A DNA stretch of 64,000 nt from Candidatus Woesearchaeota archaeon (lineage in GTDB: Archaea; Nanobdellota; Nanobdellia; Woesearchaeales; UBA11576), in assembly GCA_018668595.1 (NCBI GenBank), contig JABJCP010000013.1, positions 64,116-128,115 of the forward strand. Reading direction: 5' to 3'. The notes under the pieces are model-generated. The model did not search any database and had not been told where the DNA came from. It saw only the letters and a program-made list of their open reading frames with translations. The position numbers were made by a program, and so were the translations under genes. Below, in pieces: positions 8,593-63,720 of this stretch (positions are counted from its first letter, which is position 1; every line of letters starts with the position of its first letter).

Positions 8593-9780
8593 TTAATAAT
8601 CTCTAAATTTAAAATCATATTTCTCAGATACTTTAATCAAATTATCAACAATACGATCATTAATTGATTGATTCTCTTTTGTATTTGCAAGAGCTCTCAA
8701 TTCAACAAAATGTTTTCCAGTCATAAGTTCATATGCAGATGCGTAAAGAACTGCTGCATCAATAACAAGCTCATCAGGAAATTTAACAGGTTTTCCTGCC
8801 CTGCCTATTTTTTCAACATAATCTCGAATAAATTGTTTATCAAAAGCACTAGGAATATTATCTACTCTACCCCCCCTATATTCTTCATAATCGTCTGCTT
8901 TCCAAATTCTACTTGAATCTGCAGTAATCATTTCATCAACAACACGCACAAGCTTATTTTCAATTGTGTAAAACTTTTTTGAATCGTCTGTAGCACTAAA
9001 ATTATTAATTGATGAATCCATATTTTTAAAATCATATCTGTCAACACCTAATTCGAATTTTGTATCAACTAAAAGCAAACCACGCTCTGCTAAAAAATCC
9101 TCAGACTTTCTAAATAAACCAAAACAAATATTTACAAGGTTATCCAGGATAGATTCTCCACCAACTAATTCTGCTGCAACATCATAAGGTATAGGAAGAT
9201 CATGACCCGATTCTGCTTTTGTCGTCGGAGTAAATAATAAACTAGTTAATCGTCCCCCCGTTTGTATTAATTCATCTTCGAACATATCAGGAGTTATGTT
9301 AATTCCATATCCTTTTGTAAAACAATTGAGTTCAGATGACCATTCTTGAGCACCATCAACTTTTGATTTAAAATCTTTCCAACCACTACCTGTTAAATGA
9401 CGTCGGATTACAAACTCGACAGGAAAAACCTTGCAATTAACTGCATAAGTAAAATTAGGATCAATACTTGAATCAATAGTTTGAGATGCGACAACATCTT
9501 TGCAAAGATCCATAAAAAAATTATTAAGAGCAGTTGTTACAAGACCTTTATTTGGAATTAAACTGTGATGAACACAATCATGAGTAGAAATTCTATCAGT
9601 TCTCGCCATTAATCTGTACAAATCAAAAATATTACTATCTGCAACCTTTCCAGAATGAGGAACAATATCTGATCTGAATGCATATTGAGGAATATCAAAT
9701 TCTCTAAATAAAAAATTGTTATTCAAATCATTTCTTATAATTTTTGTCAATTCAGATAATTTAGTTATTGTTTCTACCAT
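8593..9780 (-). CDS. purC: SAICAR synthetase (long form)
   Basis: Has the LLLVDTKFELG motif, the GK...D ATP-site region and a C-terminal extension. Confidence 0.85.
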   Translation of the reverse strand: MVETITKLSELTKIIRNDLNNNFLFREFDIPQYAFRSDIVPHSGKVADSNIFDLYRLMARTDRISTHDCVHHSLIPNKGLVTTALNNFFMDLCKDVVASQTIDSSIDPNFTYAVNCKVFPVEFVIRRHLTGSGWKDFKSKVDGAQEWSSELNCFTKGYGINITPDMFEDELIQTGGRLTSLLFTPTTKAESGHDLPIPYDVAAELVGGESILDNLVNICFGLFRKSEDFLAERGLLLVDTKFELGVDRYDFKNMDSSINNFSATDDSKKFYTIENKLVRVVDEMITADSSRIWKADDYEEYRGGRVDNIPSAFDKQFIRDYVEKIGRAGKPVKFPDELVIDAAVLYASAYELMTGKHFVELRALANTKENQSINDRIVDNLIKVSEKYDFKFRDY

Positions 9781-9806: not shown

Positions 9807-10730
9807 TTACCTGCTAAAAAAAGCATCATTTATTTTAGGATTATCTCCATACTTAATTTTTGCATCGCGTTTATATTCGACCAAGTTCTTCCTTAAACCC
9901 TTTCTGCTAGCAGATAAAATCTGTGCTGCAAAAATAGCTGCGTTTTCAGGACGAGTAAAATACAATGAATTATTACACTTGCTGATTGAATTCAATATTC
10001 CATCCAAAGTGATATCTGCATATTTTGATGTTGGATTTGCACAAGATAAACAAACACCATCAAAAAAATCAAATTTAGTTGCGTCAATAAAATTATCAAA
10101 AATATTAATACAAAGTTCAGCTTTATCTTCTTCTGGTTCTTTTATTTTATATGGAACCTCTAAAGAATCTAACAAACTCTTTGCCTTATCAAAATAATCA
10201 CAAGAATAATCTTTAGGAATTAAAACAACATAATCAAAATAATTATTCACAATCTTTTCAGAAATTAAAAAAGCATCTGGTAAAGAATTCTTTTTATCTG
10301 AATGTGGGGCCACAACACCAACAGGAATTCCTGGCGGAAGATTTGAATTTGAAATAAATGCATCTAAACCGCCTCCAATAACATTAGCGCTTAATGGAAC
10401 TGCAATCATAGGTGTGTGAGGAAGATAAGCTGCAACAACTGCAGGAAGTTGAAAACTCATACCACCAACCCAAACACAACAAAAACCCGCATTATTGTCA
10501 GAATAATATACATTATCAATAAAAGCAGAAAGCTGATCTGCAATATCAAGAGTTCTTTGGGGCGTTCTATGAATTGAAGTTAACAAAGGTTTGCCTAAAG
10601 AAATATCTTTTTGTCTAAAATAATCTTGAAAATTCTGACCTCCTAGTTTAGCATATTTTCTAAATAAAACCTCGTCGTCACTTGTTGATCCTCGACCAAC
10701 AAATAAATATTTTCCAAAATTTTTTGTAAT
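9807..10730 (-). CDS. purE: AIR carboxylase / N5-CAIR mutase; CDS extended upstream of the ORF-track TTG to an in-frame ATT
   Basis: Has the SIHRTP motif (compare SAHRTP) and a GGMSFQLPAVVAA region. The in-frame upstream extension encodes FVGRGSTSDDEV (compare GSxSD). A GAGGTGA Shine-Dalgarno motif lies 5 nt before the ATT. Confidence 0.75.
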   Translation of the reverse strand: MTKNFGKYLFVGRGSTSDDEVLFRKYAKLGGQNFQDYFRQKDISLGKPLLTSIHRTPQRTLDIADQLSAFIDNVYYSDNNAGFCCVWVGGMSFQLPAVVAAYLPHTPMIAVPLSANVIGGGLDAFISNSNLPPGIPVGVVAPHSDKKNSLPDAFLISEKIVNNYFDYVVLIPKDYSCDYFDKAKSLLDSLEVPYKIKEPEEDKAELCINIFDNFIDATKFDFFDGVCLSCANPTSKYADITLDGILNSISKCNNSLYFTRPENAAIFAAQILSASRKGLRKNLVEYKRDAKIKYGDNPKINDAFFSR

Positions 10731-10735
10731 TCAAA

Positions 10736-10742
10736 TCACCTC
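10736..10742 (-). promoter_or_regulatory. Shine-Dalgarno GAGGTGA for purE
   Basis: The reverse complement of tcacctc lies 5 nt upstream of the in-frame ATT. It sits between the purB stop and purE. Confidence 0.5.
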
Positions 10743-12239: not shown

Positions 12240-13598
12240 TTAATGTTTGAATAATCTTTGACCTGTAAATAACATCGGAACATGCACTTTATTGCAAGCC
12301 TCAATTACTTGATAATCATTAATACTTCCGCCAGGTTGAACAACTCCTGCTATTCCCTGTGCAAGTCCTACCTCTACACCGTCGGGAAATGGAAAAAAAC
12401 CATCTGAAATCATAATACTACAATCAAGACCTGCACAATTTTTTGAAACTTCTGAATTAATTAATTCTGCTTGACTTGTTGTGATATCTGCGTAGGGTAT
12501 TTTATATTTTAACCAAGCAGCACGATCTTTTGCTTTATCATATGCTTTTGCAACTGCAATCTTTGCAACACCAACACGATCCTGCTCGCCCGTACCAATA
12601 GCCACAGTAGTTTCGTCTTTTACAAAAATAATTGAATTTGACGTAACTCCATACTCTACTGCTAAACCAAACTCAACATCAGGTTTTAGATCTGTAGAAA
12701 AATTAGATGCTGATTTGTATTTTTGTTTTCTATACGTATGATGTGCAGGAACTAAATTTTCAAAAGAATTATTTAACTTCTGATTAAGCTGTAGAACCAT
12801 ACCCCCATCAGATAATGATTTAAATTCTAAATAATTAGAATTAACAAAATCCTGAAGACGATTTATGTTCTTTATTTTAATAATTCTCAAATTTTTCTTT
12901 TTTTCAAACAAGTCCAAAACGCCATCTTCAAACTCAGGAGCTGCAATAACCTCTGCATAATTATCACAAATAGACTCTGCAGTAATTTTATCAATAGATT
13001 GATTAAAAACAACTGCGCCACCAAAAGCAGCAACACGATCTGCAAGGTTTGCAGTCTGATATGCTTTGACGAGAGAATCTTTTCTTGACACACCACAAGG
13101 ATTATTATGCTTAACAATAACACAACTTGGTCTGGCTCCTAAATATTTTAAAATGTTTAAAGCAGAATCAACATCAGTCAAATTAATTTTGCCAGGATGT
13201 TTGCCTGATTGAACTAATTCAGGAAATGAAACCAAATAATTATCAGGAGAAATAATCTCTATATCACCAATAAGAAGATTTCCATTAATTAATCTATACA
13301 GTGCTGCGGGCTGATCTGGATTTTCACCATAACGCAAACCTTTTTTTTCATATAATCCTGAATCTTTATTTAAGATGCCCCACTCGGTTTTTGCATATAA
13401 CAAAGATTGACCATCAATAATATTTCCAGTGGACTCGTCTATTGCATCAAAAAAAGTTTGACGAATAAATCTAGGAAAAGGATCGTCATTTATTGTCTTG
13501 TATATTGTTTGGAGTTTAGATTTTGAACTATTTTTCAAATTTTGTTTATCATTTTTCAATTTATTCACCCAGTTTATTAAGTATTGTTGGATATGCAA
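12240..13598 (-). CDS. purH: AICAR transformylase domain of PurH (C-terminal half of the bifunctional enzyme, as a separate ORF)
   Basis: Has GLRYGENPDQ, CVIVKHNNPCGV, and AFGGAVVFN, a C-terminal FTGQRLFKH. The TTG start overlaps the upstream ORF by 38 nt. Confidence 0.8.
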   Translation of the reverse strand: MHIQQYLINWVNKLKNDKQNLKNSSKSKLQTIYKTINDDPFPRFIRQTFFDAIDESTGNIIDGQSLLYAKTEWGILNKDSGLYEKKGLRYGENPDQPAALYRLINGNLLIGDIEIISPDNYLVSFPELVQSGKHPGKINLTDVDSALNILKYLGARPSCVIVKHNNPCGVSRKDSLVKAYQTANLADRVAAFGGAVVFNQSIDKITAESICDNYAEVIAAPEFEDGVLDLFEKKKNLRIIKIKNINRLQDFVNSNYLEFKSLSDGGMVLQLNQKLNNSFENLVPAHHTYRKQKYKSASNFSTDLKPDVEFGLAVEYGVTSNSIIFVKDETTVAIGTGEQDRVGVAKIAVAKAYDKAKDRAAWLKYKIPYADITTSQAELINSEVSKNCAGLDCSIMISDGFFPFPDGVEVGLAQGIAGVVQPGGSINDYQVIEACNKVHVPMLFTGQRLFKH

Positions 13599-14271
13599 AA
13601 CTAATATCTTTCACTGTTCTCGTAATAAAATAATTTGCAATCAAAGAATCATATTGCGCAGTATGAATAAATGCTTGCTGTGCACAATATAATCTAAATT
13701 TAAGATTTGTATGTCCTTTAGTTTGTTTTAATTTATCTATTAAAAAAGGATAATCTGCAGGATTAACAACAACTCCAACTCTTAAAAAGTTTTTTGCAGC
13801 AGCTCTAACCATGCTCGGACCACCAATATCAATATTACCTCGCGCATCTTCAAAATGAACAGGATCTTTACCAGATTTATTTGAAATAACCTGAGAAAAA
13901 GGATAAAGATTGCACACAACAAGATCAATAGGTTCTGCATTTTCTCGTCTAAGATCATCTTGGTGTGCTTGCGAATAAGTTTCAGTTAAGTAACCTAAAA
14001 AAAGTTTATGGTGCAAGGTTTTAACAAGACCCCCTTCTGTTGGAGGCATATCAGTATATGATTTTACATCGCTCAAATTTTTAAATGAATTTTCTCCTAA
14101 AATCTCAGTTATCTTTTTGTAAGTTCCGCCAGTAGAATAAATATTCACACCAGGAATAATTTTAATTAAATCATGGATGAGCTGGTCTAAACCTGATTTA
14201 TCAGACACACTAATCACTACATTTTTTATTTTTACCAAATCATCAATTTGTTCTACACGACGAATAGACAT
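13561..14271 (-). CDS. purH: IMP cyclohydrolase (MGS-like) domain of PurH (N-terminal half, as a separate ORF)
   Basis: Has ISVSDKSGL, STGGT, GGLVKTLHHKLF, and DLVVCNLYPF, IDIGGPSMVRAAAKN. It ends 21 codons after the IANYF interdomain-linker motif. Confidence 0.8.
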   Translation of the reverse strand: MSIRRVEQIDDLVKIKNVVISVSDKSGLDQLIHDLIKIIPGVNIYSTGGTYKKITEILGENSFKNLSDVKSYTDMPPTEGGLVKTLHHKLFLGYLTETYSQAHQDDLRRENAEPIDLVVCNLYPFSQVISNKSGKDPVHFEDARGNIDIGGPSMVRAAAKNFLRVGVVVNPADYPFLIDKLKQTKGHTNLKFRLYCAQQAFIHTAQYDSLIANYFITRTVKDISFAYPTILNKLGE

Positions 14272-33231: not shown

Positions 33232-33660
33232 TCATAACGCAACATACTTCTCAACAAGTCTAAAACAAGATCCTACTGCCACTGCAATGAATATTGAAAT
33301 TATTAATCTGTTGAGAAAGAATTCTAAACCAAAGTAACCTGTCTCGAGGAAGAATCGTCCAGGACCAATTAAAGTTTGAGCTGTTATAAACGCGACAATA
33401 AGACTAGGAGCAAGACCTTTGTTTTTTAGAACTGTTAAAATGGGAATAAATGCCATTAATGGTCCAGGAGTTGCAATGCCTAAAGCAGATGCTTTGAAAA
33501 TATTTTTTTCATTCTCTTTGAAATGCCCTTCAATATGATTCTTCTTAGTATAATAATTAAGAACTTGAGATACAAAAACAGCAACTAATAAAATTGGAAG
33601 TATTTTAAGAAACGAAATCAATGTTTTAGCCAAGATTTGAATAATAACTTCAGAGGTCAC
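33232..33660 (-). CDS. half-size permease subunit (COG0701/DUF318-like repeat unit)
   Basis: 145 aa with 4 TM helices. Paralogous to the adjacent gene and overlaps it by 4 nt (ATGA). Full-length members of this family are internal two-repeat proteins. Confidence 0.4.
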   Translation of the reverse strand: MTSEVIIQILAKTLISFLKILPILLVAVFVSQVLNYYTKKNHIEGHFKENEKNIFKASALGIATPGPLMAFIPILTVLKNKGLAPSLIVAFITAQTLIGPGRFFLETGYFGLEFFLNRLIISIFIAVAVGSCFRLVEKYVAL

Positions 33661-34094
33661 ATTAATACCTCCATTAAAAATCCACCAATGATAATAAATA
33701 TTGTTGTGATAAAAAATCTAGCAGTGAAAAACTTCCACCCCAAATATTTTATTTCCATAAAATCTCTGATGATTGATTCGCCAATAACCTCTCCTGCGAT
33801 AAGCGCAAAGACAACACCAACACCCGCACCTTTGAGAAATAATGCAAATGCAATAGGATATGTTGCATACCTCGGAATTGGAAGAAGTATTCCTATGATT
33901 GCTGCTAAAGGAATCGCAATAAATAAGTTTTTTCCCAGGAGAAACTCGACTGAAGAACTTGGAACATACATTTCAATAAGTACTCCAAGCAAAACTGCAA
34001 TGAAAAAAATAGGTAGAAGTATTTTAAGACTTTTTAGTGAATTTATTGCTATTGGTTTTAAGTGTTTAAGTTCAAATTGTTTTAGATTTAACAT
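33657..34094 (-). CDS. half-size permease subunit (COG0701/DUF318-like repeat unit)
   Basis: 145 aa with 4 TM helices. Upstream partner of the 33232 gene. Confidence 0.4.
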   Translation of the reverse strand: MLNLKQFELKHLKPIAINSLKSLKILLPIFFIAVLLGVLIEMYVPSSSVEFLLGKNLFIAIPLAAIIGILLPIPRYATYPIAFALFLKGAGVGVVFALIAGEVIGESIIRDFMEIKYLGWKFFTARFFITTIFIIIGGFLMEVLM

Positions 34095-34324: not shown

Positions 34325-35767
34325 TTAGATGCATTTATTCTTACCTTTGTTTCCGATTAATTCACCAACTCGGTGAATCTCAATAAGATTTGTTCGTTTT
34401 CTTACATTCAATGGATGTGCTGCAGTGATAATTACCCTATCTGATTTTTTTATTAATTTATTTTTATATGCGCAAAGTGTAGACCAGTAAATTAAATCTC
34501 TCGTCGTAGTTATTTTATGTTCTCTACCTTTATTTATGTCAACCGGCTGAGCCCCCCAAACAAGAGCAAGCTGTCTTGTTGTTTTTTCATCAGGAGTCAT
34601 TGCAACAATATCTGCTTCTGGACGAAATTTAGAGATAAGAGATGCACTATAACCACTGTAAGTGCAAACAAGAATTTTATTGATTGGAGTAATTTGAGTA
34701 ATATCATAAACTGCTTTTGCAATAGCATCATTAGTTGAGGTGAGTTTCTGATTATGATCCAAATCTAAATTAAGTTCAACTTTTTTTGATATTCTAGTCA
34801 TCATTTTAACTGCAGCAATAGGATACTTACCAATAGCAGTTTCTCCACTAAGCATAATTGCATCAGTACCATCGAGAATTGCGTTTGCAACATCACTTGC
34901 TTCTGCCCGCGTTGGACGATTATTCTCAGTCATAGACTCAAGCATTTGAGTTGCTGTGATAACTGGTTTTCCAATCTCATTGCATTTTTCAATAATATGT
35001 TTTTGGATAAGAGGGACGTCTTCTGGCGGAAGTTCAACACCCATATCTCCGCGCGCAACCATAATCCCATCAGCAACCTCTAAAATTTTATAAAAATTCT
35101 TTACAGCCTCTTCACACTCAATTTTTGCAATAATTTTGATATGAGGTTGTGACTTGATAAGTTGCTTAATCTTAAGAATATCATCTGCAGTTTTTACAAA
35201 AGACACTGCAATAAAATCAGCATGATTTCTCATAGCAAATCTCAAATCCATTTTATCTTTATCTGTTAAACTTGGAAGTACAACTTTTTGACCTGGAAGA
35301 TTAATACCTCTGTTATTTTTTAAAACTCCTCCACTTTTAACTTTACAAATAACATCACGGTTTAACACATGATCAACTTTTAATTCAATTGCACCGTCAT
35401 TGATCAGAACCACATGTCCTTTTTTTGCCTGCTTTGGAAATCGCTTATAAGAAATATTAACCTGAGTGGAATCGCCAATGATTGGACGAGTAGTTAAAAT
35501 AAATGATTGACCTGTCTTAAGAATTGTTTTTTCTTTTACTAGCCCTGTACGAATCTCAGGACCTTTAGTATCAAACATTATTCCAATAGTATTAGAAACT
35601 TGTTTAATATTTTTTATCATGCGCGCATACTGAATATAATTACCATGAGAGCAATTAATTCTTGCAACAGACAAACCTGCTTCATAAAGTTTTTTTAGTT
35701 TAGAATAAGACTCTGTAGCAGGTCCAATAGTACAAACAATTTTAGTTTTAGCTTTAGCAATAGTAAT
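34325..35767 (-). CDS. pyk: pyruvate kinase; CDS extended upstream of the ORF-track TTG to an in-frame ATT
   Basis: The extension encodes TKIVCTIGPATES...AGLSVARINCSHG, the canonical pyruvate kinase N-terminus. There is no ATG/GTG/TTG in this stretch. A GAGGTG Shine-Dalgarno motif lies 6 nt before the ATT. Confidence 0.85.
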   Translation of the reverse strand: MTIAKAKTKIVCTIGPATESYSKLKKLYEAGLSVARINCSHGNYIQYARMIKNIKQVSNTIGIMFDTKGPEIRTGLVKEKTILKTGQSFILTTRPIIGDSTQVNISYKRFPKQAKKGHVVLINDGAIELKVDHVLNRDVICKVKSGGVLKNNRGINLPGQKVVLPSLTDKDKMDLRFAMRNHADFIAVSFVKTADDILKIKQLIKSQPHIKIIAKIECEEAVKNFYKILEVADGIMVARGDMGVELPPEDVPLIQKHIIEKCNEIGKPVITATQMLESMTENNRPTRAEASDVANAILDGTDAIMLSGETAIGKYPIAAVKMMTRISKKVELNLDLDHNQKLTSTNDAIAKAVYDITQITPINKILVCTYSGYSASLISKFRPEADIVAMTPDEKTTRQLALVWGAQPVDINKGREHKITTTRDLIYWSTLCAYKNKLIKKSDRVIITAAHPLNVRKRTNLIEIHRVGELIGNKGKNKCI

Positions 35768-35773
35768 GATCTA

Positions 35774-35779
35774 CACCTC
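35774..35779 (-). promoter_or_regulatory. Shine-Dalgarno GAGGTG for pyk
   Basis: The reverse complement of cacctc. It is followed by TAG, ATC, then ATT. Confidence 0.5.
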
Positions 35780-42022: not shown

Positions 42023-43147
42023 TTAAAGAACTCGAGGATCTTTTAAACCATGACCTGAGAGAATGCAAACAACTTGTTGACCTCGTTTTCCTAATTCTAA
42101 TTTTTTTGCGCCTGCATAAGACACTGCACCACTAGGCTCGACAAAAATACCTTGTTTACCCAGTTCTTTTCTTGCTTGAATTATTTCTCGCTCTGTAACT
42201 TGCTCAGTGATTCCTCTCATTTTTCTTAATCTGCTTAAAGCCTGAGTTGCATCAACAGGATGACCACAAGCAATAGCAGTTGCAATAGTTTTAGGAGATT
42301 TACACGTTGTGATGTGATCACATTTATTTTTATACGCTTTATATAATGGATTACAACCTTTTGCTTGGATTGCAGCCACTCTTGGAATTTTTTTAATTAA
42401 TCCCACTTCTTTTAATTCAAACAAAGCTTTGCATGTTGATGCTAATAATGTTGCATTTCCAACAGGAAGTGCAATAATATCAGGAGGATTCCAATTTAAC
42501 TGATCAATAATCTCAAATGCAACACTTTTTTCACCCTCTCCACGATATGCATAATCACCTGTTAAGTAAACATGTTTTTTTGCTCTTTGAGTTTTTGTTA
42601 GCTTAACTGCATCTTCATAAGTTCCTTTAACATTAACAATATTCGCACCCATGTTTTTAATTTGATTTGCTTTATTGGGCGGTGCAAAAGTAGGAAGATA
42701 AATTGTGCAGTTAATATTTGCACGTGCACTGTACGACGCAACACTTGCACCCATGTTACCAGTTGATGCACAAACAACTTTTTTAACACCCAACTCTCTT
42801 GCTTTAGTTATTTCAACAGTTGATCCGCGATCTTTAAAACTACCTGTAGGATTTGCAGCTTCGTATTTGAATAAGAAATTTTTATTATGATTAGATTCTA
42901 ACATAGGTGTTGCTCCTTCATTAAAAGAAACTATTTGATCATAATCATTAATCGGATAAAACGGCCAATACTTCCAATGAGAAGGAGGTTCTCTAAGAAA
43001 TTGACTTTTTATAATTTGTTTTTTTATTGAATGATAATCATAAACTAAATCTAAACTTCCACCACACGCATCACATTCAAAAATAATTTCGTCAGGATCG
43101 TGAGCGCGTTTGCATTCAACACATTGGATTGAGGTTGCGTGGGTTAT
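42023..43147 (-). CDS. thrC: threonine synthase (archaeal type with N-terminal zinc ribbon); CDS extended upstream of the ORF-track ATG to an in-frame ATA
   Basis: Has the PLP-lysine motif NPTGSFKDRG. The in-frame upstream extension encodes CVECK...CDACGG (zinc ribbon) and FNEGATP. There is no ATG/GTG/TTG in this stretch. A GGTGA Shine-Dalgarno motif lies 7 nt before the ATA. Confidence 0.75.
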   Translation of the reverse strand: MTHATSIQCVECKRAHDPDEIIFECDACGGSLDLVYDYHSIKKQIIKSQFLREPPSHWKYWPFYPINDYDQIVSFNEGATPMLESNHNKNFLFKYEAANPTGSFKDRGSTVEITKARELGVKKVVCASTGNMGASVASYSARANINCTIYLPTFAPPNKANQIKNMGANIVNVKGTYEDAVKLTKTQRAKKHVYLTGDYAYRGEGEKSVAFEIIDQLNWNPPDIIALPVGNATLLASTCKALFELKEVGLIKKIPRVAAIQAKGCNPLYKAYKNKCDHITTCKSPKTIATAIACGHPVDATQALSRLRKMRGITEQVTEREIIQARKELGKQGIFVEPSGAVSYAGAKKLELGKRGQQVVCILSGHGLKDPRVL

Positions 43148-43154
43148 TTTTGGT

Positions 43155-43159
43155 TCACC
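43155..43159 (-). promoter_or_regulatory. Shine-Dalgarno GGTGA for thrC
   Basis: The reverse complement of tcacc, with a 7-nt spacer to the in-frame ATA. Coordinates are ±1. Confidence 0.45.
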
Positions 43160-43198
43160 TTTTTTTGATTGAATTAATTAATTGATTATTTTTTTGTA

Positions 43199-44161: not shown

Positions 44162-45238
44162 CTAATAATTTAGTAAGGAATCAAATGCAGCAGATTTAAT
44201 TCCGTTTCCAGTATTGATTGTTGCAATTAAATCATATCTATCCAAAACAGAATCGTCTAAGTTTCTTATGTGTGCCAAACTTGCAGCACCACTAGGTTCA
44301 GATTCTCTTCCCAGTTGTCTAAATTGACCAAGTGCAAACAATATGTCTTGTTCTGTTACTTGATAAATCTTATCACCACTTTTTTTTGCAAATGTGAAAC
44401 CTTTATTTTTTAGATCCTCCAGACTTCGCTGCCAGGATTCTGAAGAATCACAAATTTTATCTGCAACAGTGTCTTTATTTCCAGTACTTACAGCACATAA
44501 ATCAATATCCAGACTACTTTGATCAATATCAAGACTACTTTGTTTTACGACAAGTTCGGAATCATCATAAAGCATTCCTGCTCCGAATTGAATTATTGCG
44601 AGAGTTTTTGGGAAGGTTGTTGGAAAGTTTTTGTATTTTTTATATTCTGATTTTATTTGCTCTATGAAATCAAACATTACCCTAGTGTAAGTTGGATTAA
44701 ATCCTTCAGTAATGTCTAATGAATTATCTTTATTTGCACAAATTCCTAACTCATTCATCTTATCAATACAAGGTTTTCCAAGCCAATATGTTTTTGTAAA
44801 ATCTACTCTGATTAATTTTCCACTTCGATATTTTTCCATTGCTAAACGAATTCTTTTTCCGTCAGTAAATCTGCCAAAACTATCAGGTCCAAGAATTTTT
44901 GAATCATAATGCTCAGGATAAAAATTTACAATCGTTACTTTTTGTTCTCCTAATAAATCATTGAGTTTATCTGCAAAAGCAAAATCTGCCATGCCCGCAT
45001 TTCCAGTCGAACCAAGATAATAAATAAACGGATTAGGAAACTGATTCTGCAAATAATGTAAACCCATCATCCAACCATGATGTGCTTTGTATGTTCCAGT
45101 TTCATTTATACTTTCATCCTTAATTGCAACTGTTTTATTATTGATTGTTGTAAAAATAACAGGAGTGGTTTTTGGTTTTAATTCAATCCATTTTTCAATG
45201 AGTTCTTTTCTTATTCGATCCATATTTTGTTCTAACAC
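44162..45238 (-). CDS. putative PLP-dependent enzyme (fold-type II, TrpB-like) of unknown specificity
   Basis: ETGTYKAHHG resembles the TrpB PLP-lysine motif TGSHKiNN. A Gly-rich GSTGNAG loop is present. Contains an in-frame 24-nt tandem duplication (QSSLDID x2). Weak. Confidence 0.3.
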   Translation of the reverse strand: MLEQNMDRIRKELIEKWIELKPKTTPVIFTTINNKTVAIKDESINETGTYKAHHGWMMGLHYLQNQFPNPFIYYLGSTGNAGMADFAFADKLNDLLGEQKVTIVNFYPEHYDSKILGPDSFGRFTDGKRIRLAMEKYRSGKLIRVDFTKTYWLGKPCIDKMNELGICANKDNSLDITEGFNPTYTRVMFDFIEQIKSEYKKYKNFPTTFPKTLAIIQFGAGMLYDDSELVVKQSSLDIDQSSLDIDLCAVSTGNKDTVADKICDSSESWQRSLEDLKNKGFTFAKKSGDKIYQVTEQDILFALGQFRQLGRESEPSGAASLAHIRNLDDSVLDRYDLIATINTGNGIKSAAFDSLLNY

Positions 45239-57464: not shown

Positions 57465-58028
57465 TTAATCTTCTTTTTTTTGAGTTAATGTTGGTTCAGG
57501 CACTATTCCTTTTTCTACTTCAAGATATGCATTCACTAACTTGTTGTCTTTTAGTCTAGCTTCAAGTTCATCAGATTCCTCTTTGGACATACAAGATTTT
57601 GCACCAAGATGAGCACTTAGAAAATAATAAACATTAGGAACTTTCAAATCTGCTGCTTTTTCTAACGCTGCAACATCATCAGATTTAGATCCATAAGTTA
57701 AAACTCCATGTGCTAATCCAGCTCCTATCGCAGAACAATAATTATTTTTTGACGTCTGTCTAGATTCATCGTCTTCGTTTAAGTTTGTAGCAATGTCTCC
57801 CGAGTAAGCTTGCGCATGTGCTTGGATAGATCTCTGCAAATCATCTAGACTTGCAACAACGTCAACAATGCTTAACTCGCAACCAGGTTGTTGGTATGTT
57901 TTTTTAATCAAATTTAAAAATCCATACATTCGTTTTAGCATAGGTTCGACTTTTCGATAGTCTTGCTCGCCCAGTTTCAGTGGTTCGTACAATTTATTAA
58001 ATTCTTCATTAATTTTTTTATCAGTCAT
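57465..58028 (-). CDS. hypothetical protein (187 aa)
   Basis: ORF only. Weak resemblance to the class II aldolase C-terminal region. Confidence 0.25.
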   Translation of the reverse strand: MTDKKINEEFNKLYEPLKLGEQDYRKVEPMLKRMYGFLNLIKKTYQQPGCELSIVDVVASLDDLQRSIQAHAQAYSGDIATNLNEDDESRQTSKNNYCSAIGAGLAHGVLTYGSKSDDVAALEKAADLKVPNVYYFLSAHLGAKSCMSKEESDELEARLKDNKLVNAYLEVEKGIVPEPTLTQKKED

Positions 58029-58165
58029 TTTAAATCAAATATTTGAATGAATTTATTTAAATATGTTCTGTTCTCCACAGGTGACGAATGAACAATTAAT
58101 TGGTTTTTATATTATTATTATGAGTATTGATAATATTTATATATCCTTAATTTTTTCTAATATAT

Positions 58166-59446
58166 ATGAAGTGGATAAAACGCATATTTTCAAAGATAAA
58201 AGACGCTCATGTGCCTGAAATCAGTGATGAAGAAGAATTCGTAGAAGCAGCACAGCTAAGTAACTGGTTTGAAAGAAAAACAGAACACAAATTTGATGAT
58301 CTCAAAACAGAAGTGGAAACTAGTTTTTCTAAAATAGACGAAACCACAGACTCTATGCGAGATAATCTAGATTTGCTTAACTCAAGCGAACTCCAAAATC
58401 CAAACATTCCTGAACGCGCAGTTCAAATAATGGAAGGAAATCGTGATTCTTTTATATCCCAACACAAAATATTTCTTGATGGAATGAGCATACCTCAAAA
58501 TCCTGATTTTAAATCAACACTAATTTTTTGCGAAAGATACTTTGTTGCACTAGAACGACTTGGAAAAAGCACAGGAAAAAGCACAGCAGTACTAAATGAA
58601 TTTTTTTCAAATGAAGTTAGCGCAATAAATCAAAATATTTCAAAAATTAATAATATATTAGGATCTCTAAAAAACAAATTGATGAGTGAAGAAAAAGGAA
58701 TTGAATACGTAGATGAAATCAAACAAGATGTAGAAGAATTCAATGGAAAACTAAAAAGAGAATCTGAACTTTTACAAGATAAAGATTTCCACAAACAAAA
58801 ATTAGATGCAAGTATTGGCATGAAGAAAAAACTAGAAAAAGATGTTGATAAGCTAAAAGCAAGCGAGGGGTATTCTGCATATTCCAGTTTAGATACTGAA
58901 CGAGATAGTCTAAAAAAAGAAATTAAACAAGTAGAAAATGATATTTTTCATGTGTTCTTTCAATTAGACAAAGTGTTTAAAAAATATGTAAGGATATCTG
59001 TAGACAATGCTCGATTAATACAACAATATCTCGACGATCCAGTAACTGCAGTAGTTGCGGATGAAGAAAATAAAATACTAGATGTATCTGCCAAAATGAT
59101 TCTTGCAATTGACCAAGGAACAATTGATTTGAAAGACGGATCAAAAGTTATTGAACGAATTAGCCGCATCAATAAAGACTTTCTCGATAGATTTAGATTT
59201 AAACATAATGATCTAAAAAATTCTACTAAAAAATTAGATTTTAAAATGAAAAATAGTCGCGTTATGCAAGAAATATCTGATCTGAATTATAAAATGGATC
59301 ATGTCAACAAACAAATACAAATACTCGAAGAGAAAAATTCAAAATTCGACAAAAGTATTGAACGACTAGATATAGACCAAGCCCGACGAAATTTACAAAT
59401 AAAACTTCAAAAAGCACTGGGTTTTAGAGTTACTGTTAATAAATGA
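58166..59446 (+). CDS. coiled-coil protein (426 aa)
   Basis: Extended heptad-rich K/E sequence. No enzymatic motif. Confidence 0.35.
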   Translation: MKWIKRIFSKIKDAHVPEISDEEEFVEAAQLSNWFERKTEHKFDDLKTEVETSFSKIDETTDSMRDNLDLLNSSELQNPNIPERAVQIMEGNRDSFISQHKIFLDGMSIPQNPDFKSTLIFCERYFVALERLGKSTGKSTAVLNEFFSNEVSAINQNISKINNILGSLKNKLMSEEKGIEYVDEIKQDVEEFNGKLKRESELLQDKDFHKQKLDASIGMKKKLEKDVDKLKASEGYSAYSSLDTERDSLKKEIKQVENDIFHVFFQLDKVFKKYVRISVDNARLIQQYLDDPVTAVVADEENKILDVSAKMILAIDQGTIDLKDGSKVIERISRINKDFLDRFRFKHNDLKNSTKKLDFKMKNSRVMQEISDLNYKMDHVNKQIQILEEKNSKFDKSIERLDIDQARRNLQIKLQKALGFRVTVNK

Positions 59447-59447
59447 A

Positions 59448-60866
59448 TTAACAAACATAAACTTTGATTTTACTTTCTTCGTTTTCATCGTTTTTTGATT
59501 CGTCTTTTGCTTTAAACAACTTATTCTTAATATAAAAAAAAATCTCACCAAATTTTGATTTGTTCTCAAATCTTGCTGCAAAATAAATAGGTTCTTCAAC
59601 TGAATGCCAACGAGTTCTATCCATTTCCATTGTTGAATGCGCGCCCTCCAAATTTCGTTTTTCGTCAGGAAGATCAAAAACATTCATCAAATTTTTTATT
59701 CTGGTTTTAGGAAATAAGTCAGTACGACTCACTAGATCATAACCAAAACCTTCTGAATACTGTGATTTAAATTTACCCTTCCTAGTAAAATCAATATATT
59801 TGTTTATTTCCAAACACACATGAATTGAACCTACATAAAAACTACTTTCGCTTAACGCAGTAGAGAAAGAATATTCTTTGCGAGTGATTAAATTATTTTT
59901 TATATAACTAACAATTGAAAATTTTAATTTATCTTCAAGAGCATCTGTTAATTGAGTCAAATAATCACAATTAAATGAATCCAACAAAGATAAGACTCCA
60001 ATAGAATCTAAATTAGTTAATCTATCTCTGTGCTTATTTTTTTTATCTAAAAACAGATCATAACTACTTTTTACATACTCTTGTTTTGATTTTAGTCCTT
60101 CAAGATCACGCTTTAATAAACCAATATCTTGTTTAATATTAGTTGTCTTTTCTGTTCTATCAATAACATCTTGAATAGATTCTTCTTTAACAGGTTGTAA
60201 AAGAATATCTTGTTCTTGTTTTTGTTCTTCGATCCTGTATTTAAGATCCATAATTTCTTGTTTGTATCCTCTTAACTCAGCTTCAACAGAACCACCACTT
60301 TTATCATAATCCTCTTTTAAGCAATTTAAATCTTGAATTGCTCTATGAATGATATTAAAATTTTTAGTAAAGTCAAATAAATCATACATTACTTGCTCAT
60401 CTAGAGTTTGATCAGAAAATAAACAAGAAGAATAATTCTCGAATAACTGAGAATGTTCTGATTGAAATGCAGTTGTTAGAATATGTTCTAATTCAACACT
60501 ATTAGTAGTTAGTAAACTGCGTTTTTCAATTAATATATTTTCTATTCTAGTTTGTTTTGATTTTTCTTTTTTAATAGAATCATTTAATTTTGCCAAAGAT
60601 TTTTTTGCAATCTTTGAGTACCAAAATGAATCTGACTTTACTTGATACTCTTCTTTTTTAGATTTTAAATTAGATTTATCAGTTTCGAATTCATCTGACA
60701 AGGTTTCTATTTCGGTTTCTAAATCAGAACCTGCAGTTTTATAATGAACAAATTGACTCAAGAATCTAATCAAATCTAAGTCTTGAGAATGGATAAGGGG
60801 TAAAACTAATTCATGAATAGGATCAAGTTTTGGTTCTTCTGTTTTTTTTGTTGCTTTTTGTGCCAT
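59448..60866 (-). CDS. coiled-coil protein, member 1 of a three-gene tandem paralog family (conserved C-terminal globular domain)
   Basis: Shares KSGG...YKQEI.DL.RIE.Q coiled-coil blocks and a C-terminal LFP...LMNVFD.P...R...FA.K(C/F)(D/E)N.SKF block with the ORFs at 60884 and 62290. Confidence 0.45.
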   Translation of the reverse strand: MAQKATKKTEEPKLDPIHELVLPLIHSQDLDLIRFLSQFVHYKTAGSDLETEIETLSDEFETDKSNLKSKKEEYQVKSDSFWYSKIAKKSLAKLNDSIKKEKSKQTRIENILIEKRSLLTTNSVELEHILTTAFQSEHSQLFENYSSCLFSDQTLDEQVMYDLFDFTKNFNIIHRAIQDLNCLKEDYDKSGGSVEAELRGYKQEIMDLKYRIEEQKQEQDILLQPVKEESIQDVIDRTEKTTNIKQDIGLLKRDLEGLKSKQEYVKSSYDLFLDKKNKHRDRLTNLDSIGVLSLLDSFNCDYLTQLTDALEDKLKFSIVSYIKNNLITRKEYSFSTALSESSFYVGSIHVCLEINKYIDFTRKGKFKSQYSEGFGYDLVSRTDLFPKTRIKNLMNVFDLPDEKRNLEGAHSTMEMDRTRWHSVEEPIYFAARFENKSKFGEIFFYIKNKLFKAKDESKNDENEESKIKVYVC

Positions 60867-60883
60867 TTTATTATTTTAATTGA

Positions 60884-62263
60884 TTAATATCCATAGTTTC
60901 GCTTACGTACATTATTTAATTTAAGTCTTGCAGAGTAGCGCATAGAATCCTCGTCTACTTTAACTTCTTTGCCCTGCAAATGTTTAGATAAAACATATGT
61001 GATAAAATTCGAAAACTTAGAAGAGTTTTCACACTTTACTGCAAAAGTATACTTTCGAGAATATCCATCTGACCCATTATTATACGGTTCTGAATATGAA
61101 TTATCATCCATATCTAAAATCTTACTTAATTCATCGAATTTTTTTGTAGGAACAAACCCTACCCCACTAGTTTTAACTTCTTGTTCAGTAATTTGGCCTT
61201 GATCATCTTTCACTTTTTTAAAATAATCTCCAATAGATACGCTTGATTCAATAGTTACAACTGCAAAACCATTTTTGACAAGCTCGTCAGTAAAAGGCCA
61301 ATCTTCTTTTTTAACAGCATATTTTTTTACATAATCAAACATAACAGAATGAACTTTGGTTAATAATTCTTGTTTGGTTTGATTTAAAGCTTCTAAATTT
61401 GATTCTTCTACTAATTCTGAAAATTCAGATTCTGATAATTCATCAAAAAATGAACTGTCTGAATTAAATTGACTAAATAACTCTTGAAACTTTTTGTTTA
61501 GTGTTTGAAAAGTTCTTTTTGAAAAACTAAGCTCACCCTCCAATCTAGTAATTTCCGACTTATGATATGCTTTTTCTTTTGCAAGATCCAAAATTTCTTG
61601 AGCATTATCACCAGTTGTTTGAGACGCTAATTCATCTACTCTTGCTTTATGTTTTTTCAAAAGTGCTTTTGATTGTTTAATGTCTTGTTTAGATTTAACC
61701 ATAGAATCATAAACAGAATTATTTGTTAAGACATATTTCTTATCTCTTTTTAACCCATCAAATGAACAAATAGCAACCATACTGCTTTCTAATCGAACTG
61801 ATAAATCAGATAACTGGCAAATTTCATCAGGCGTTAAAAATCTATCATCTTGAAAATATGATTCAACTTGTTTTGCTAATTGAGTTGGTTCTAAAACAGA
61901 ATGTTTATCTTCAAAAGCTTTTTTTGTGGTGTCTAAATTAGAAATTGTTGTTTCGTATTTTTCAACTTGTTTTTTTGAACGATTTAATTCGTTTTTAGTA
62001 TGCAAGTGATCAGTTCTCCATTTACGCATAGAATCTTCGCAAAATTCTCTGTATAAATAAAACCAAGGAGATTCATCTCGTTTTTTAAATTTAGCATCTA
62101 GTTTTTCAAAGTCTTCATTCTTTTTTTCAAAATCATCTTTTTGCTGAGTTAAAATATCCGCTAATCTTTTTTTTGTTGATTCATAAAAAACATTAAAACA
62201 TAAATGATTGATAATGTCTTTAGGTGATTTTTCTTGTGTTGTGTTTTTTGCTGGTTCTTGCAT
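60884..62263 (-). CDS. coiled-coil protein, member 2 of the tandem paralog family
   Basis: Has the C-terminal TFAVKCENSSKFSNFI block and the shared architecture. Confidence 0.45.
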   Translation of the reverse strand: MQEPAKNTTQEKSPKDIINHLCFNVFYESTKKRLADILTQQKDDFEKKNEDFEKLDAKFKKRDESPWFYLYREFCEDSMRKWRTDHLHTKNELNRSKKQVEKYETTISNLDTTKKAFEDKHSVLEPTQLAKQVESYFQDDRFLTPDEICQLSDLSVRLESSMVAICSFDGLKRDKKYVLTNNSVYDSMVKSKQDIKQSKALLKKHKARVDELASQTTGDNAQEILDLAKEKAYHKSEITRLEGELSFSKRTFQTLNKKFQELFSQFNSDSSFFDELSESEFSELVEESNLEALNQTKQELLTKVHSVMFDYVKKYAVKKEDWPFTDELVKNGFAVVTIESSVSIGDYFKKVKDDQGQITEQEVKTSGVGFVPTKKFDELSKILDMDDNSYSEPYNNGSDGYSRKYTFAVKCENSSKFSNFITYVLSKHLQGKEVKVDEDSMRYSARLKLNNVRKRNYGY

Positions 62264-62289
62264 TTTTAGTTCCTCTAGTAAATTTTAAA

Positions 62290-63720
62290 TCAAACTTCAT
62301 CAGGCAGTTTATTGAGATTTCTTGTATAAATTGAAACTGCATATTCATCACGATCAGTAGTTTCTGCCAGATTCTTATTAATCATACCATCTATAAACTC
62401 ATTTGCCATTTGAGAGAATACTTTAGAATTATCACACTTGACGGCAAAACAAACAGGTTCATATCTTTTTGAAGAAATGCCTCGTCCATGATTTACCACT
62501 CTTTGTTTTCTTGGAATGTCAAATACATTCATCAGTTTTTCTGCCCATGAATCTGGAAACAAATCAGGTCTACTAGAATATTCAAAAGAACCGTCTCCAT
62601 TATCTAATTTAAAATCAGAATCTCTTTTGTTAATATATTTTTGAATATCACAGATTATTTCTAAACTAACAATAGAAAAACCCCCTTTTTTAATTGAATC
62701 TATATACTGCCAATCAGAAGGTTTAATATGATTAAGTGATGCAAATTCACAAAATGTTTTTTGGATTTTACGTTTTATTTCTCGACGGAAACCAACAAGA
62801 TGATCTCTATTTAATGAATCTAGTAGATCAGAAACTCCTTTTTCTCCTAATAACTTAATTTCTTGATAAAACTTATTTTGGACATCTAAAGTTGATTCTA
62901 TTTTTGATTGAGTTTGTTGAGCTTCCTGTTTTTTAGATTCTAATATGTTCTTTAATTCCTTTAAGTTTTCTCTTGCAGATTCTGTTAATTTTGCTTTTTG
63001 GACTACTTCCGCTATAGAAGTTTCCTTTTGAGAAATTGAATGTTTCTTAACTATTAATTCCTGTGTTTCAATTCTAACACCCAAATCATTTATTTCTTGT
63101 TTATATTTTTTCAATTGTTCTCCAAGAGCTCCACCACTCTTAACATTATTTTCTCTTAGTTCAGATAATTTATCAACTGCTTTAATAAGCTCATCTGCTT
63201 CTAAATAAAAAGAATATAACTCACAAAGAAAGTCAGGAGTTAATTTTCTCTTATCACCCCTAGTTTCAAATAAATTAATAAAAACTTCAGAATATTTTTC
63301 TACTTTTTTATTAAGACCGCTTTGTGCAATCGATTGATTTAATATTTGCCCAAGATCATTAAATTTTGTTAATTCTTCTTTTTCAGATTCAATACCTGCA
63401 AGCAACTTAGCACGCTGATTTTCACATTCAGTTACTCTCGATTCTAATTTTTTTAATTCTGGTCCAGAAAATAATTTAACTAAGAAATTATCTTTAAGGT
63501 CAGTTATTTTTGAATTGGCGTTAGCAATATCCTGTCTAAGTAATGCTCTTTGATTATGCTGTTTTTGATCAATAGATTCAGTTAATGATCTAATTTGCCC
63601 ATTATAATAAACTGCAGAACATAACAAAGAAACATATTTACCTTTACCCCCTTCTAAAAAAGGTTGTGTTAAATTTAATATATCTGATTGAATTTGAGTT
63701 GATTGTGTACTAGATCTCAT
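62290..63720 (-). CDS. coiled-coil protein, member 3 of the tandem paralog family
   Basis: Has the C-terminal DLFPDSWAEKLMNVFDIPRKQR...CFAVKCDNSKVFSQ block and the shared architecture. Confidence 0.45.
   Translation of the reverse strand: MRSSTQSTQIQSDILNLTQPFLEGGKGKYVSLLCSAVYYNGQIRSLTESIDQKQHNQRALLRQDIANANSKITDLKDNFLVKLFSGPELKKLESRVTECENQRAKLLAGIESEKEELTKFNDLGQILNQSIAQSGLNKKVEKYSEVFINLFETRGDKRKLTPDFLCELYSFYLEADELIKAVDKLSELRENNVKSGGALGEQLKKYKQEINDLGVRIETQELIVKKHSISQKETSIAEVVQKAKLTESARENLKELKNILESKKQEAQQTQSKIESTLDVQNKFYQEIKLLGEKGVSDLLDSLNRDHLVGFRREIKRKIQKTFCEFASLNHIKPSDWQYIDSIKKGGFSIVSLEIICDIQKYINKRDSDFKLDNGDGSFEYSSRPDLFPDSWAEKLMNVFDIPRKQRVVNHGRGISSKRYEPVCFAVKCDNSKVFSQMANEFIDGMINKNLAETTDRDEYAVSIYTRNLNKLPDEV

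What the first reader, a model, noticed from the sequence alone, without database searches (positions are those of the whole stretch)
42023..43160. thrC: N-terminal zinc-ribbon region encoded without a canonical start; Shine-Dalgarno motif and AUA in frame. This is a third case of likely Ile-codon initiation
The in-frame extension upstream of the annotated ATG encodes ITHATSIQCVECKRAHDPDEIIFECDACGGSL...FNEGATP. That is the archaeal ThrC zinc ribbon plus the conserved EGxTP block. No ATG/GTG/TTG occurs back to the TAA. GGTGA is followed 7 nt later by an in-frame ATA. Three independent, highly conserved enzymes (purE, pyk, thrC) in one 64-kb window all need an AUU or AUA start behind a well-spaced Shine-Dalgarno motif.  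Together these argue for a real organism-level use of Ile codons as initiators.  The alternative explanation is three separate errors.
Basis: partly seen in the sequence, partly recalled or inferred. Interest (0 to 1): 0.65.

Follow-up and report, generated by a model that had tools for sequence, protein, structure and literature searches.

The report
Isoleucine-codon starts in a DPANN archaeon
The threonine synthase gene of this tiny uncultured archaeon, like at least two other enzyme genes nearby and the same genes in several relatives, has no normal start codon and most likely starts at ATA/ATT/ATC behind a ribosome-binding site, so gene callers cut these proteins short.

Summary
thrC lies on the minus strand and is open for 384 codons (42023..43177). 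Its first in-frame ATG/GTG/TTG is codon 92. The 81 codons before that ATG encode a four-cysteine ribbon and the HWKYWPFYP and EGxTP blocks, all conserved in about 370-aa ThrC proteins of Woesearchaeota/Nanoarchaeia (DPANN archaea). The ATA at 43147..43145 aligns exactly with Met1 of those homologues and sits 7 nt after AGGTGA.

Six assemblies from different samples are 100% identical across this region, so it is not an assembly error. pyk (GAGGTG-TAG-ATC-ATT) and a PurE-like gene (GAGGTGAT-TTGA-ATT) show the same arrangement. In relatives, thrC has ATA, ATT and ATC at the Met1 position, plus a second ATT that is ambiguous, and one pyk has ATT. By contrast, 151 of 151 thrC loci from other lineages keep a canonical start. 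The Ile-codon (ATH) thrC genes are scattered on a neighbour-joining tree. The N-terminal region is under purifying selection, and internal ATA codons align with Ile.

Best reading: initiator tRNA starts translation at AUA/AUU/AUC, guided by a Shine-Dalgarno site, and this lineage tolerates such starts. No protein-level evidence exists. The relevant fidelity factor is aIF1, not IF3. I rate it a new variant of a known kind, of moderate to high interest, with direct consequences for annotation.

The parts
42023..43147 (-). Full-length thrC coding sequence as re-drawn here: 374 codons from ATA, plus the stop TAA at 42025..42023
   Evidence: Homologues of 57-64% identity cover 97-99% of it. TIGR00260 thrC scores 194 bits against a cut-off of 167; NF006050 profile position 4 corresponds to residue 2.
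43145..43147 (-). Proposed initiation codon ATA
   Evidence: It aligns with Met1 of the 'MTLAKKIxC' homologues (column 11). It lies 7 nt after AGGTGA. Five other ATA codons inside thrC align with Ile.
43155..43160 (-). Shine-Dalgarno motif AGGTGA, complementary to the archaeal 16S 3' tail ...UCACCU...
   Evidence: The same motif family (GGTGA, GAGGTG, GGAGG) lies 5-10 nt before most ATG starts in the window.
43178..43180 (-). In-frame TAA that closes the frame upstream; 10 codons lie between it and ATA (codon 2 of these is ATT, with no SD)
43064..43123 (-). CxxC...CxxC (zinc-ribbon-like) segment: Cys9, Cys12, Cys25 and Cys28 counted from ATA
   Evidence: All four Cys are invariant in 21 aligned N-termini. 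I did not test metal binding or the fold.
42902..42904 (-). The ATG that gene callers used (293-aa product P0001). It is an internal Met.
   Evidence: It aligns with Leu in 25 of 25 homologues. The truncated product lacks the ribbon, HWKYWPFYP and EGxTP. AAGGAG, formed by the conserved Glu-Gly codons, lies 8 nt upstream, which explains the gene caller's choice.
34325..35767 (-). pyk as re-drawn: ATT start at 35767..35765. SD GAGGTG is at 35779..35774, TAG at 35773..35771 and ATC at 35770..35768.
   Evidence: TIGR01064, 537 bits; residue 7 corresponds to profile position 2. The called product is 431 aa (P0121).
9807..10730 (-). PurE-like gene as re-drawn: ATT start at 10730..10728, the first codon after TGA. 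SD GAGGTGAT is at 10742..10735.
   Evidence: Met1 of the homologues corresponds to about residue 5, and the GSxSD motif lies upstream of the called TTG.

Best explanation
thrC is an intact, functional threonine synthase gene. Its translation starts at the ATA codon 43147..43145.

Proposed mechanism (inferred):
1. The 30S subunit is positioned by pairing of the 16S 3' tail with AGGTGA.
2. Initiator Met-tRNA (anticodon CAU) pairs with AUA, with a mismatch at the third position.
3. The protein therefore begins with Met and carries the four-Cys ribbon.

This is not a one-off. The same genome starts pyk and a PurE-like gene at ATT behind strong SD motifs. Related Woesearchaeota-type DPANN archaea repeatedly carry ATA, ATT or ATC where other ThrC and Pyk genes have ATG. 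The lineage therefore appears to tolerate any AUH codon as an SD-led start, in roughly 4-5% of the genes in the 83 kb I examined. Strong A+T mutation pressure (30% GC) probably keeps converting ATG to ATH.

Shown: the anatomy, the conservation, the identity across assemblies, the recurrence in relatives, and the absence of the pattern in other lineages.
Inferred: that the ribosome really starts there, that Met is inserted, and that start-codon proofreading (aIF1/aIF2 or the initiator tRNA) is relaxed.
For: 1. There is no in-frame ATG/GTG/TTG for 91 codons, yet this region encodes invariant Cys x4, HWKY and EG.TP.
2. ATA aligns exactly with Met1 of homologues of about 370 aa. NCBIfam threonine synthase profiles start at residue 2.
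3. SD spacing is 8 nt after GGTG, inside the 5-10 nt range of the canonical starts in the window. In the SD-aware scan the only non-canonical starts of known genes were these three; two other ATT hits lie beside a canonical start or in a likely spurious 81-codon ORF.
4. Six assemblies from different samples are 100% identical over 351 nt spanning the start.
5. Relatives' thrC genes (62-64% identity):
 - L088: 'gaggtgaatTAA ATA GCA TTA GCA' (ATA is the first codon after the stop; the next canonical start is 72 codons on).
 - L090: 'TGA GGC AAA AAA ATT ACA CTC GCA'.
 - L089: '...GAG AAA ATC ACT TTA AAG'.
 - L087: 'GAG GTG AAT CAT ATT ACT TTA AAG'.
 All of these ATH codons align with Met1. A relative's pyk, L091, has GAGGTG + 7 nt + ATT with no canonical start for 32 codons.
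6. Controls: 0 of 71 genome loci and 0 of 80 metagenome loci of thrC from other lineages lack a canonical in-frame start before the first CxxC.
7. ATH-start thrC genes are scattered among ATG-start ones on an NJ tree, implying at least 4 independent changes.
8. All five ATH-start thrC ORFs are intact (368-374 codons). For the L087/L089 pair, the N-terminal 84 codons have dN 0.14 with dS saturated; dN is 0.40-0.46 and dS at least 1.4 for the window against relatives.
9. Internal ATA codons align with Ile, so AUA has not been reassigned.
Against: There is no proteomic, ribosome-profiling or transcript-start evidence. AUA and AUU are very poor initiators in the organisms tested: Sulfolobus aIF1 rejects AUU in vitro (review PMC4705826), and my recollection of E. 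coli reporter work is about 1% of AUG or less.

An ATT (codon 2 of the open stretch, 43174..43172) is also in frame, though it has no SD. The internal ATG at 42904 has an SD-like AAGGAG 8 nt upstream, so a truncated isoform could also be made.

In two relatives (L087, L092) the GTG inside the SD is in frame and could itself be the start.

Only about 83 kb of one genome was scanned. A fourth gene without a canonical start (cysK-like, outside the window) has no SD, so one mechanism may not explain everything. The NJ tree has no support values.
Confidence: 0.78

Rival explanations
1. The genes are recently inactivated. ATG mutated to ATA/ATT under A+T pressure, the N-terminal part is no longer translated, and thrC, pyk and the PurE-like gene are young pseudogenes, or survive only as truncated products from the downstream ATG/TTG. 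This would fit ongoing genome reduction in DPANN archaea.
For: DPANN genomes lose biosynthetic genes (general knowledge). G-to-A or G-to-T changes at the start codon are the expected first lesion at 30% GC. The window does hold damaged-looking genes: purH is split into two ORFs and a Hel308-like helicase lacks its first domain. The internal ATG of thrC has an SD-like AAGGAG upstream.
Against: - No frameshift or stop appears in 374, 480 and 307 codons, in a genome where stop codons arise easily.
- All invariant residues, including the four Cys, are kept.
- Strong SD motifs are retained exactly in front of the ATH codons in all three genes.
- The same state occurs in at least 4 independent thrC lineages and in another pyk, all of them intact.
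- The N-terminal dN is low while dS is saturated.
- The truncated products would lack the EGxTP block of ThrC, strand 1 of the Pyk barrel and the GSxSD motif of PurE.
Confidence: 0.08
2. Translation starts elsewhere or by another route. Options are the upstream ATT (43174..43172), re-initiation by ribosomes finishing the ferredoxin gene 51 nt upstream, or a recoding event. In that case ATA is only an Ile codon near the N-terminus.
For: ATT is in frame 9 codons upstream of ATA. thrC follows the ferredoxin gene closely on the same strand. The PurE-like gene starts 15 nt after the purB stop, so coupling may help there. A cysK-like gene of the same genome has no canonical start and no SD, but it overlaps an SD-led 24-codon mini-ORF.
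Against: The upstream ATT has no SD and would add 9 residues that no homologue has. pyk lies about 290 nt from the preceding gene and still shows the SD-plus-ATT arrangement. In L088 and in the PurE-like gene the ATH codon is the very first codon after an in-frame stop, so nothing upstream can be in frame. Even with re-initiation, the restart codon would still be an ATH codon.
Confidence: 0.08
3. The pattern is a sequencing or assembly artefact, or AUA has been reassigned to Met.
For: None found.
Against: Six assemblies from different samples and different assemblers are identical, and five more are identical over 3.7 kb elsewhere in the window. Relatives show the same state. Internal ATA codons align with Ile (82 Ile against 11 Met, and 9 of those 11 come from the start column). 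ATT and ATC are used as well, which an AUA-to-Met reassignment would not explain.
Confidence: 0.02

Closest known systems
AUU-initiated bacterial genes (E. coli infC and pcnB; Enterococcus faecalis ebpA, PMC4447247)
   Same: An SD-led mRNA carries a near-cognate AUH start with a third-position mismatch to the initiator anticodon. Gene callers pick a downstream ATG and truncate the product.
   Different: Those are isolated genes in which the weak start serves regulation: infC is autoregulated through IF3 (PMC4705826). Here at least three ordinary metabolic enzymes in 64 kb are affected, all three AUH codons are used, the pattern recurs across a lineage, and the organism is an archaeon without IF3. 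I found no evidence of a regulatory role.
The single inferred ATT start of Asgard archaeal tubulin AtubA (PMC13394414)
   Same: It is an archaeal gene whose deposited product lacks a conserved N-terminal strand. An upstream ATT restores the strand and places a likely ribosome-binding site at a plausible distance. The inference was made from sequence and structure, as here.
   Different: That is one gene in one genome. Here there are several genes per genome, plus comparative evidence for repeated ATG-to-ATH changes and negative controls from other lineages.
Routine use of AUA/AUU/AUC as initiators in animal mitochondria and, at low frequency, in A+T-rich reduced bacteria such as Mollicutes (from my own knowledge; these codons are listed as alternative initiators in NCBI translation table 11)
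   Same: Small A+T-rich genomes in which AUH codons serve as starts at a non-negligible frequency.
   Different: Mitochondria have no SD, have also reassigned AUA to Met, and use a modified tRNA-Met. Here AUA stays Ile internally, initiation is SD-guided, and the machinery is the archaeal aIF1/aIF1A/aIF2 set. Sulfolobus aIF1 is reported to reject AUU (PMC4705826).

Membership tests
SD-led near-cognate (AUH) translation initiation | Conserved coding sequence extends upstream of the first canonical start, with no in-frame ATG/GTG/TTG in that stretch | tested here: met
   91 codons upstream with no canonical start. They encode invariant Cys x4, HWKY and EG.TP.
SD-led near-cognate (AUH) translation initiation | A near-cognate codon lies at normal spacing behind a Shine-Dalgarno motif | tested here: met
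   AGGTGA + 7 nt + ATA. The window's canonical starts have 5-10 nt after GGTG; the three ATH genes have 6, 6 and 8 nt.
SD-led near-cognate (AUH) translation initiation | The near-cognate codon is homologous to the ATG of orthologues | tested here: met
   ATA falls in the Met1 column of the alignment. Relatives have ATA, ATT or ATC in the same column.
SD-led near-cognate (AUH) translation initiation | The protein N-terminus maps to that codon, with Met inserted by initiator tRNA | not testable with these tools
   Needs N-terminomics, metaproteomics or toeprinting.
Regulatory weak start of the infC type | The weak start is conserved and coupled to autoregulation by the fidelity factor | tested here: not met
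   The start alternates between ATG and ATH among close relatives, and the genes are metabolic enzymes. No initiation-factor gene turned up in the window ORFs scanned with Pfam (the last four ORFs, 57465..63720, were not scanned here and carry no Pfam hit in the precomputed calls).
Threonine synthase (NCBIfam TIGR00260 thrC) | Score above the curated cut-off; PLP-lysine motif SFKDRG present | tested here: met
   194 bits against a cut-off of 167.1. F114, K115, D116, R117 and G118 are invariant columns. The closest solved structure is 2zsj, which lacks the N-terminal ribbon.
AUA-to-Met codon reassignment (mitochondrial type) | Internal AUA codons sit at conserved Met positions | tested here: not met
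   The five internal ATA codons of thrC align with Ile or Val.
Leaderless archaeal initiation | The start codon is at the 5' end of the transcript, there is no SD, and a promoter lies about 25-30 nt upstream | tested here: inconclusive
   An SD is present at the right spacing and thrC follows the ferredoxin gene by 51 nt, which argues against it. No transcript-start data exist. Other genes in the window do look leaderless, with TATA-like boxes about 27 nt before the ATG at 45360, 58166 and 32832.
Pseudogene | Frame disruptions, loss of invariant residues, relaxed dN/dS | tested here: not met
   The ORF is intact at 374 codons and all invariant columns are kept. dN is 0.14-0.46 while dS is at least 1.4 or saturated in the N-terminal region.
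   53 bits against a cut-off of 149.6. The gene belongs to a rare PurE-like family of about 300 aa: 114 hits among 1.84 billion cluster representatives.

The most novel reading that the evidence does not exclude
A whole lineage of DPANN archaea (Woesearchaeota/Nanoarchaeia-type) has a widened start-codon repertoire. AUA, AUU and AUC would work efficiently enough on SD-led mRNAs that ATG-to-ATH changes are nearly neutral and recur in housekeeping enzymes at the percent level. That would imply altered start-codon proofreading, through changes in or loss of stringency of aIF1, aIF2 or the initiator tRNA. It would also mean that several percent of the proteins of these organisms in public databases are truncated at the N-terminus, which biases metabolic reconstructions.
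Probability: 0.5. Interest if true: 0.75.

Novelty: new variant of a known kind. Interest (0 to 1): 0.6.

Why it matters
Initiation at AUU or AUA is known only as a rare exception, gene by gene, and archaeal aIF1 is reported to reject AUU. A free-living population of DPANN archaea in which about 1 gene in 20 starts at an Ile codon behind an SD, with relatives showing repeated ATG-to-ATH replacements, would be a natural system for studying how start-codon stringency is set in archaea.

There is also a practical effect now. The public products of these genes are truncated and would look non-functional: ThrC 293 instead of 374 aa, Pyk 431 instead of 480 aa, PurE-like 259 instead of 307 aa, and CysK-like 252 instead of about 290 aa. 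The same holds in several relatives, including NCBI-annotated ones. Pathway calls for DPANN genomes, which are often described as lacking biosynthesis, may therefore be too pessimistic. Gene callers restricted to ATG/GTG/TTG will keep making this error.

Tried and rejected
- Rfam and tRNA scans of the window found nothing, so I could not inspect the initiator tRNA or the 16S 3' end.
They returned only distant lineages (48% identity or less in the N-terminus). I reused these loci as negative controls instead of as close relatives.
- Seven literature searches found no report of ATH starts in DPANN archaea. They gave only general background and one Asgard ATT case.
- An intergenic GAGGTGAT at +30716 looked like another orphan SD, but it lies in the 5' leader of a small ATG-started ORF.
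- I considered whether the GTG inside GAGGTG opens mini-ORFs that stop at or next to the ATH codon, which it does at several ATH loci. By eye the same happens at canonical starts in this A+T-rich genome, so I treat it as chance; this was not tested formally.
- AUA reassignment, assembly error and pseudogene status were each tested and rejected.
- Walking 10 kb beyond each end of the window found no further SD-plus-ATH start. It did find one more enzyme (cysK-like) without a canonical start.
Full report
**What is in the sequence.** The finding lies on the minus strand. Reading 43201 down to 42023 in frame gives TAA ... TAA(43180..43178) TTA ATT CAA TCA AAA AAA GGT GAA CCA AAA ATA ACC CAC GCA ACC TCA ATC CAA TGT GTT GAA TGC. 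The frame then stays open to TAA at 42025..42023. The open stretch is 384 codons, and the first in-frame ATG, GTG or TTG is codon 92 (ATG 42904..42902). AGGTGA occupies 43160..43155. Seven bases later comes the in-frame ATA at 43147..43145.

**Which organism.** The window has 30% G+C and contains no tRNA or Rfam hit. The closest ThrC homologues (57-64% identity) are annotated as Candidatus Woesearchaeota, Nanoarchaeota or Nanoarchaeia, that is, DPANN archaea. The same holds for Pyk. The identical sequence occurs in many public assemblies. These include a 230-kb ENA scaffold and NCBI MAG GCA_018671815.1. Because this is an archaeon, the start-codon fidelity factors are aIF1, aIF1A and aIF2, not IF3 (review PMC4705826).

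**Is the upstream region coding?** Yes. Homologues are about 368-375 aa and cover 97-99% of the protein read from ATA. In the alignment, the window's ATA falls exactly in the column of Met1 of homologues that begin MTLAKKIVC.... Four Cys (CxxC...CxxC), HWKY and EG.TP are invariant in 21 N-termini.
- NCBIfam threonine synthase profiles that include this N-terminal part start at residue 2-7. The general thrC model TIGR00260 is passed, at 194 bits against a cut-off of 167.
- Solved bacterial ThrC structures lack the ribbon, but they align from residue 54, still upstream of the called ATG.
- The called ATG aligns with Leu in 25 of 25 homologues. It is therefore an internal Met. It was probably chosen by gene callers because the conserved Glu-Gly codons create AAGGAG 8 nt upstream.

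**Is it an error?** No. Six contigs from different samples and assemblers (ENA, JGI, Logan) are 100% identical to the window over 351 nt spanning the SD, the ATA and the N-terminus. Five more, including the NCBI MAG, are 100% identical over another 3.7 kb of the window.

**The other two genes.**
- pyk...aaaaaGAGGTG TAG ATC ATT ACT ATT GCT AAA GCT AAA ACT AAA ATT GTT TGT ACT ATT GGA CCT. Residue 6 of the open stretch aligns with residue 2 of the G. stearothermophilus enzyme (2e28). The Pfam barrel domain starts at residue 8, and the first canonical codon (TTG) is codon 33, after the TKIVCTIGP strand. ATT at 35767 lies 6 nt after GGTG.
- The 'purE' gene: GAGGTGAT-T-TGA ATT ACA AAA AAT TTT GGA AAA TAT TTA TTT GTT GGT CGA GGA TCA ACA AGT GAC. 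ATT is the first codon after the stop. Homologues of this rare family of about 300 aa begin MAKYMxxGxGSPSD, so their Met1 corresponds to about residue 5. The called TTG product (259 aa) lacks the GSxSD motif. The protein scores below the NCBIfam purE cut-off, so 'PurE-like' is the safer name.

**Window-wide scan.** Most genes show GGTGA, GAGGTG or GGAGG 5-10 nt before ATG. Others look leaderless, with TATA-like boxes about 27 nt upstream. I scanned for four things together:
- an SD match of at least 5 nt;
- spacing of 4-10 nt to the candidate start;
- an in-frame stop within 15 codons upstream;
- an ORF of at least 80 codons.

The scan returned about 14 ATG starts and 1-2 GTG starts. The only non-canonical starts of known genes were these three ATH genes, and they have some of the strongest SDs (8-, 6- and 6-mers). 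SD 6-mers occur at 73 per 128,000 strand positions. Finding one correctly placed in each of three very short permitted regions is therefore very unlikely by chance, roughly 1e-7 to 1e-6 by my estimate. Extending 10 kb past each end of the window on the same scaffold gave no further SD-plus-ATH start. It did reveal a cysteine-synthase-like gene whose first canonical start lies after the PLP-lysine motif.

**Relatives.** Several of the closest ThrC hits were annotated as N-terminally truncated. I fetched their DNA.
- L088 (64% identity): gaggtgaat TAA ATA GCA TTA GCA CAG AAG ATT AGG TGT. ATA is the first codon after the stop, and the next canonical start is 72 codons downstream.
- L090 (62%): TGA GGC AAA AAA ATT ACA CTC GCA AAA AAA ATA AGC TGC.
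- L089 (64%): ...AGA GGG GTA GAG AAA ATC ACT TTA AAG TCT ATT AGA TGT.
- L087 (63%): GAG GTG AAT CAT ATT ACT TTA AAG. This one is ambiguous, because the GTG inside the SD is in frame.

In every case the ATH codon aligns with Met1. For pyk, L091 (GC 41%) has AAGAGGTG + 7 nt + ATT and no canonical start for 32 codons. L092 is ambiguous in the same way as L087.

**Negative controls.** Of 71 thrC loci from GTDB species representatives of other archaeal and bacterial lineages, and 80 from metagenomes, none lacks a canonical in-frame start before the first CxxC. The test is crude, because it only asks whether such a codon exists. The contrast is nevertheless clear.

**Evolutionary pattern.** On an NJ tree of the shared core, the ATH-start genes are interspersed with ATG-start genes. 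This implies at least four independent changes (no support values). All five ATH-start ORFs are intact at 368-374 codons. For L087/L089 (73% amino-acid identity; ATT versus ATC) the N-terminal 84 codons have dN 0.14 with dS saturated. For the window against relatives, dN is 0.40-0.46 with dS at least 1.4. The region upstream of the 'annotated' start is therefore under purifying selection. Internal ATA codons align with Ile, so AUA has not been reassigned.

**Interpretation.** The best-supported reading is SD-guided initiation at AUA (thrC) and AUU (pyk and the PurE-like gene) by the initiator tRNA, in a lineage that tolerates any AUH start. A+T mutation pressure would supply the ATG-to-ATH changes.
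- Shown: the gene anatomy, the conservation, the reproducibility across assemblies, the recurrence in relatives, and the lineage specificity.
- Inferred: the actual initiation event, Met at position 1, and relaxed proofreading.
- Main reservations: there is no protein-level evidence. Tested systems use AUH poorly. A second in-frame ATT without an SD lies 9 codons upstream. The internal ATG has an SD-like motif. Only about 83 kb of the genome was examined.

**Comparison with what is known.** Near-cognate AUU starts are well known as single-gene exceptions in bacteria: infC and pcnB, and ebpA (PMC4447247). One ATT start was recently inferred for an Asgard tubulin (PMC13394414). Sulfolobus aIF1 is reported to discriminate against AUU (PMC4705826). 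Seven full-text searches found no description of recurrent ATH starts in DPANN archaea. A recent study of 208 complete Nanobdellota genomes used Pyrodigal; Prodigal-type callers accept only ATG, GTG and TTG (my own knowledge). I therefore class the finding as a new variant of a known kind. The mechanism is familiar. The frequency, the use of all three AUH codons, the lineage-level recurrence and the archaeal setting are not.

**Verdict.** My confidence that thrC is translated from an ATH codon in this leader is about 0.8. My estimate that the broader lineage-level claim holds is about 0.5. Interest: 0.6.

Noticed in passing
L178:1282-2160 (+), same scaffold, about 8 kb to the left of window position 1: A cysteine-synthase-like gene has no ATG/GTG/TTG until codon 41, which is after the NPTGSIKDR PLP-lysine motif; the called product is 252 aa. 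CTG (the first codon after TAA) or ATC (codon 4) fits the N-termini of homologues, but neither has an SD. Instead, an SD-led 24-codon mini-ORF in another frame overlaps the first 8 codons. The start could be non-canonical, a re-initiation, or a +1 frameshift.
   Followed up: partly
window 12240-14271 (-): purH is split into two overlapping ORFs. ORF 13561..14271 carries MGS plus AICARFT profile positions 1-59. ORF 12240..13568 carries AICARFT profile positions 74-311 and starts at a GTG (or a TTG behind GGGTGA) overlapping the end of the first ORF by 8 nt, in another frame. Five independent assemblies are identical here, so the split is real and not an indel error.
   Followed up: partly
window 24959-26569 (-): A Hel308-type archaeal helicase (Helicase_C, HTH_61, domain 4, HhH) has Helicase_C beginning at residue 88. 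The first RecA/DEAD domain seems to be missing, and the open frame extends only 8 codons further upstream.
   Followed up: no
window 33232-34094 (-): Two adjacent, slightly overlapping half-size ORFs (145 aa, and 142 aa or 161 aa for the open stretch) both match the same half of the ArsP_1 permease profile (positions about 9-134 of 294). They may be a split or two-subunit permease.
   Followed up: no
window 44162-45238 (-) and 56269-57336 (-): Extra divergent paralogues sit near the pathway genes. A 358-aa protein with only a faint PALP match lies two genes upstream of thrC. A second SAICAR-synthetase-like protein lies next to hisG and hisA/IE, in addition to purC at 8593..9780.
   Followed up: no
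L179:1253-9104 (+), same scaffold, just beyond window position 64000: A block of about 15 tightly packed same-strand ORFs (82-400 aa) has no Pfam hit at all. It could be a mobile element, a provirus or a surface-protein cluster.
   Followed up: no
window 42902-42921 (-): The conserved Asn-Glu-Gly-Ala codons (AAT GAA GGA GCA) create an AAGGAG motif 8 nt before the internal ATG. This is a likely reason why every public gene call for this thrC starts there.
   Followed up: yes
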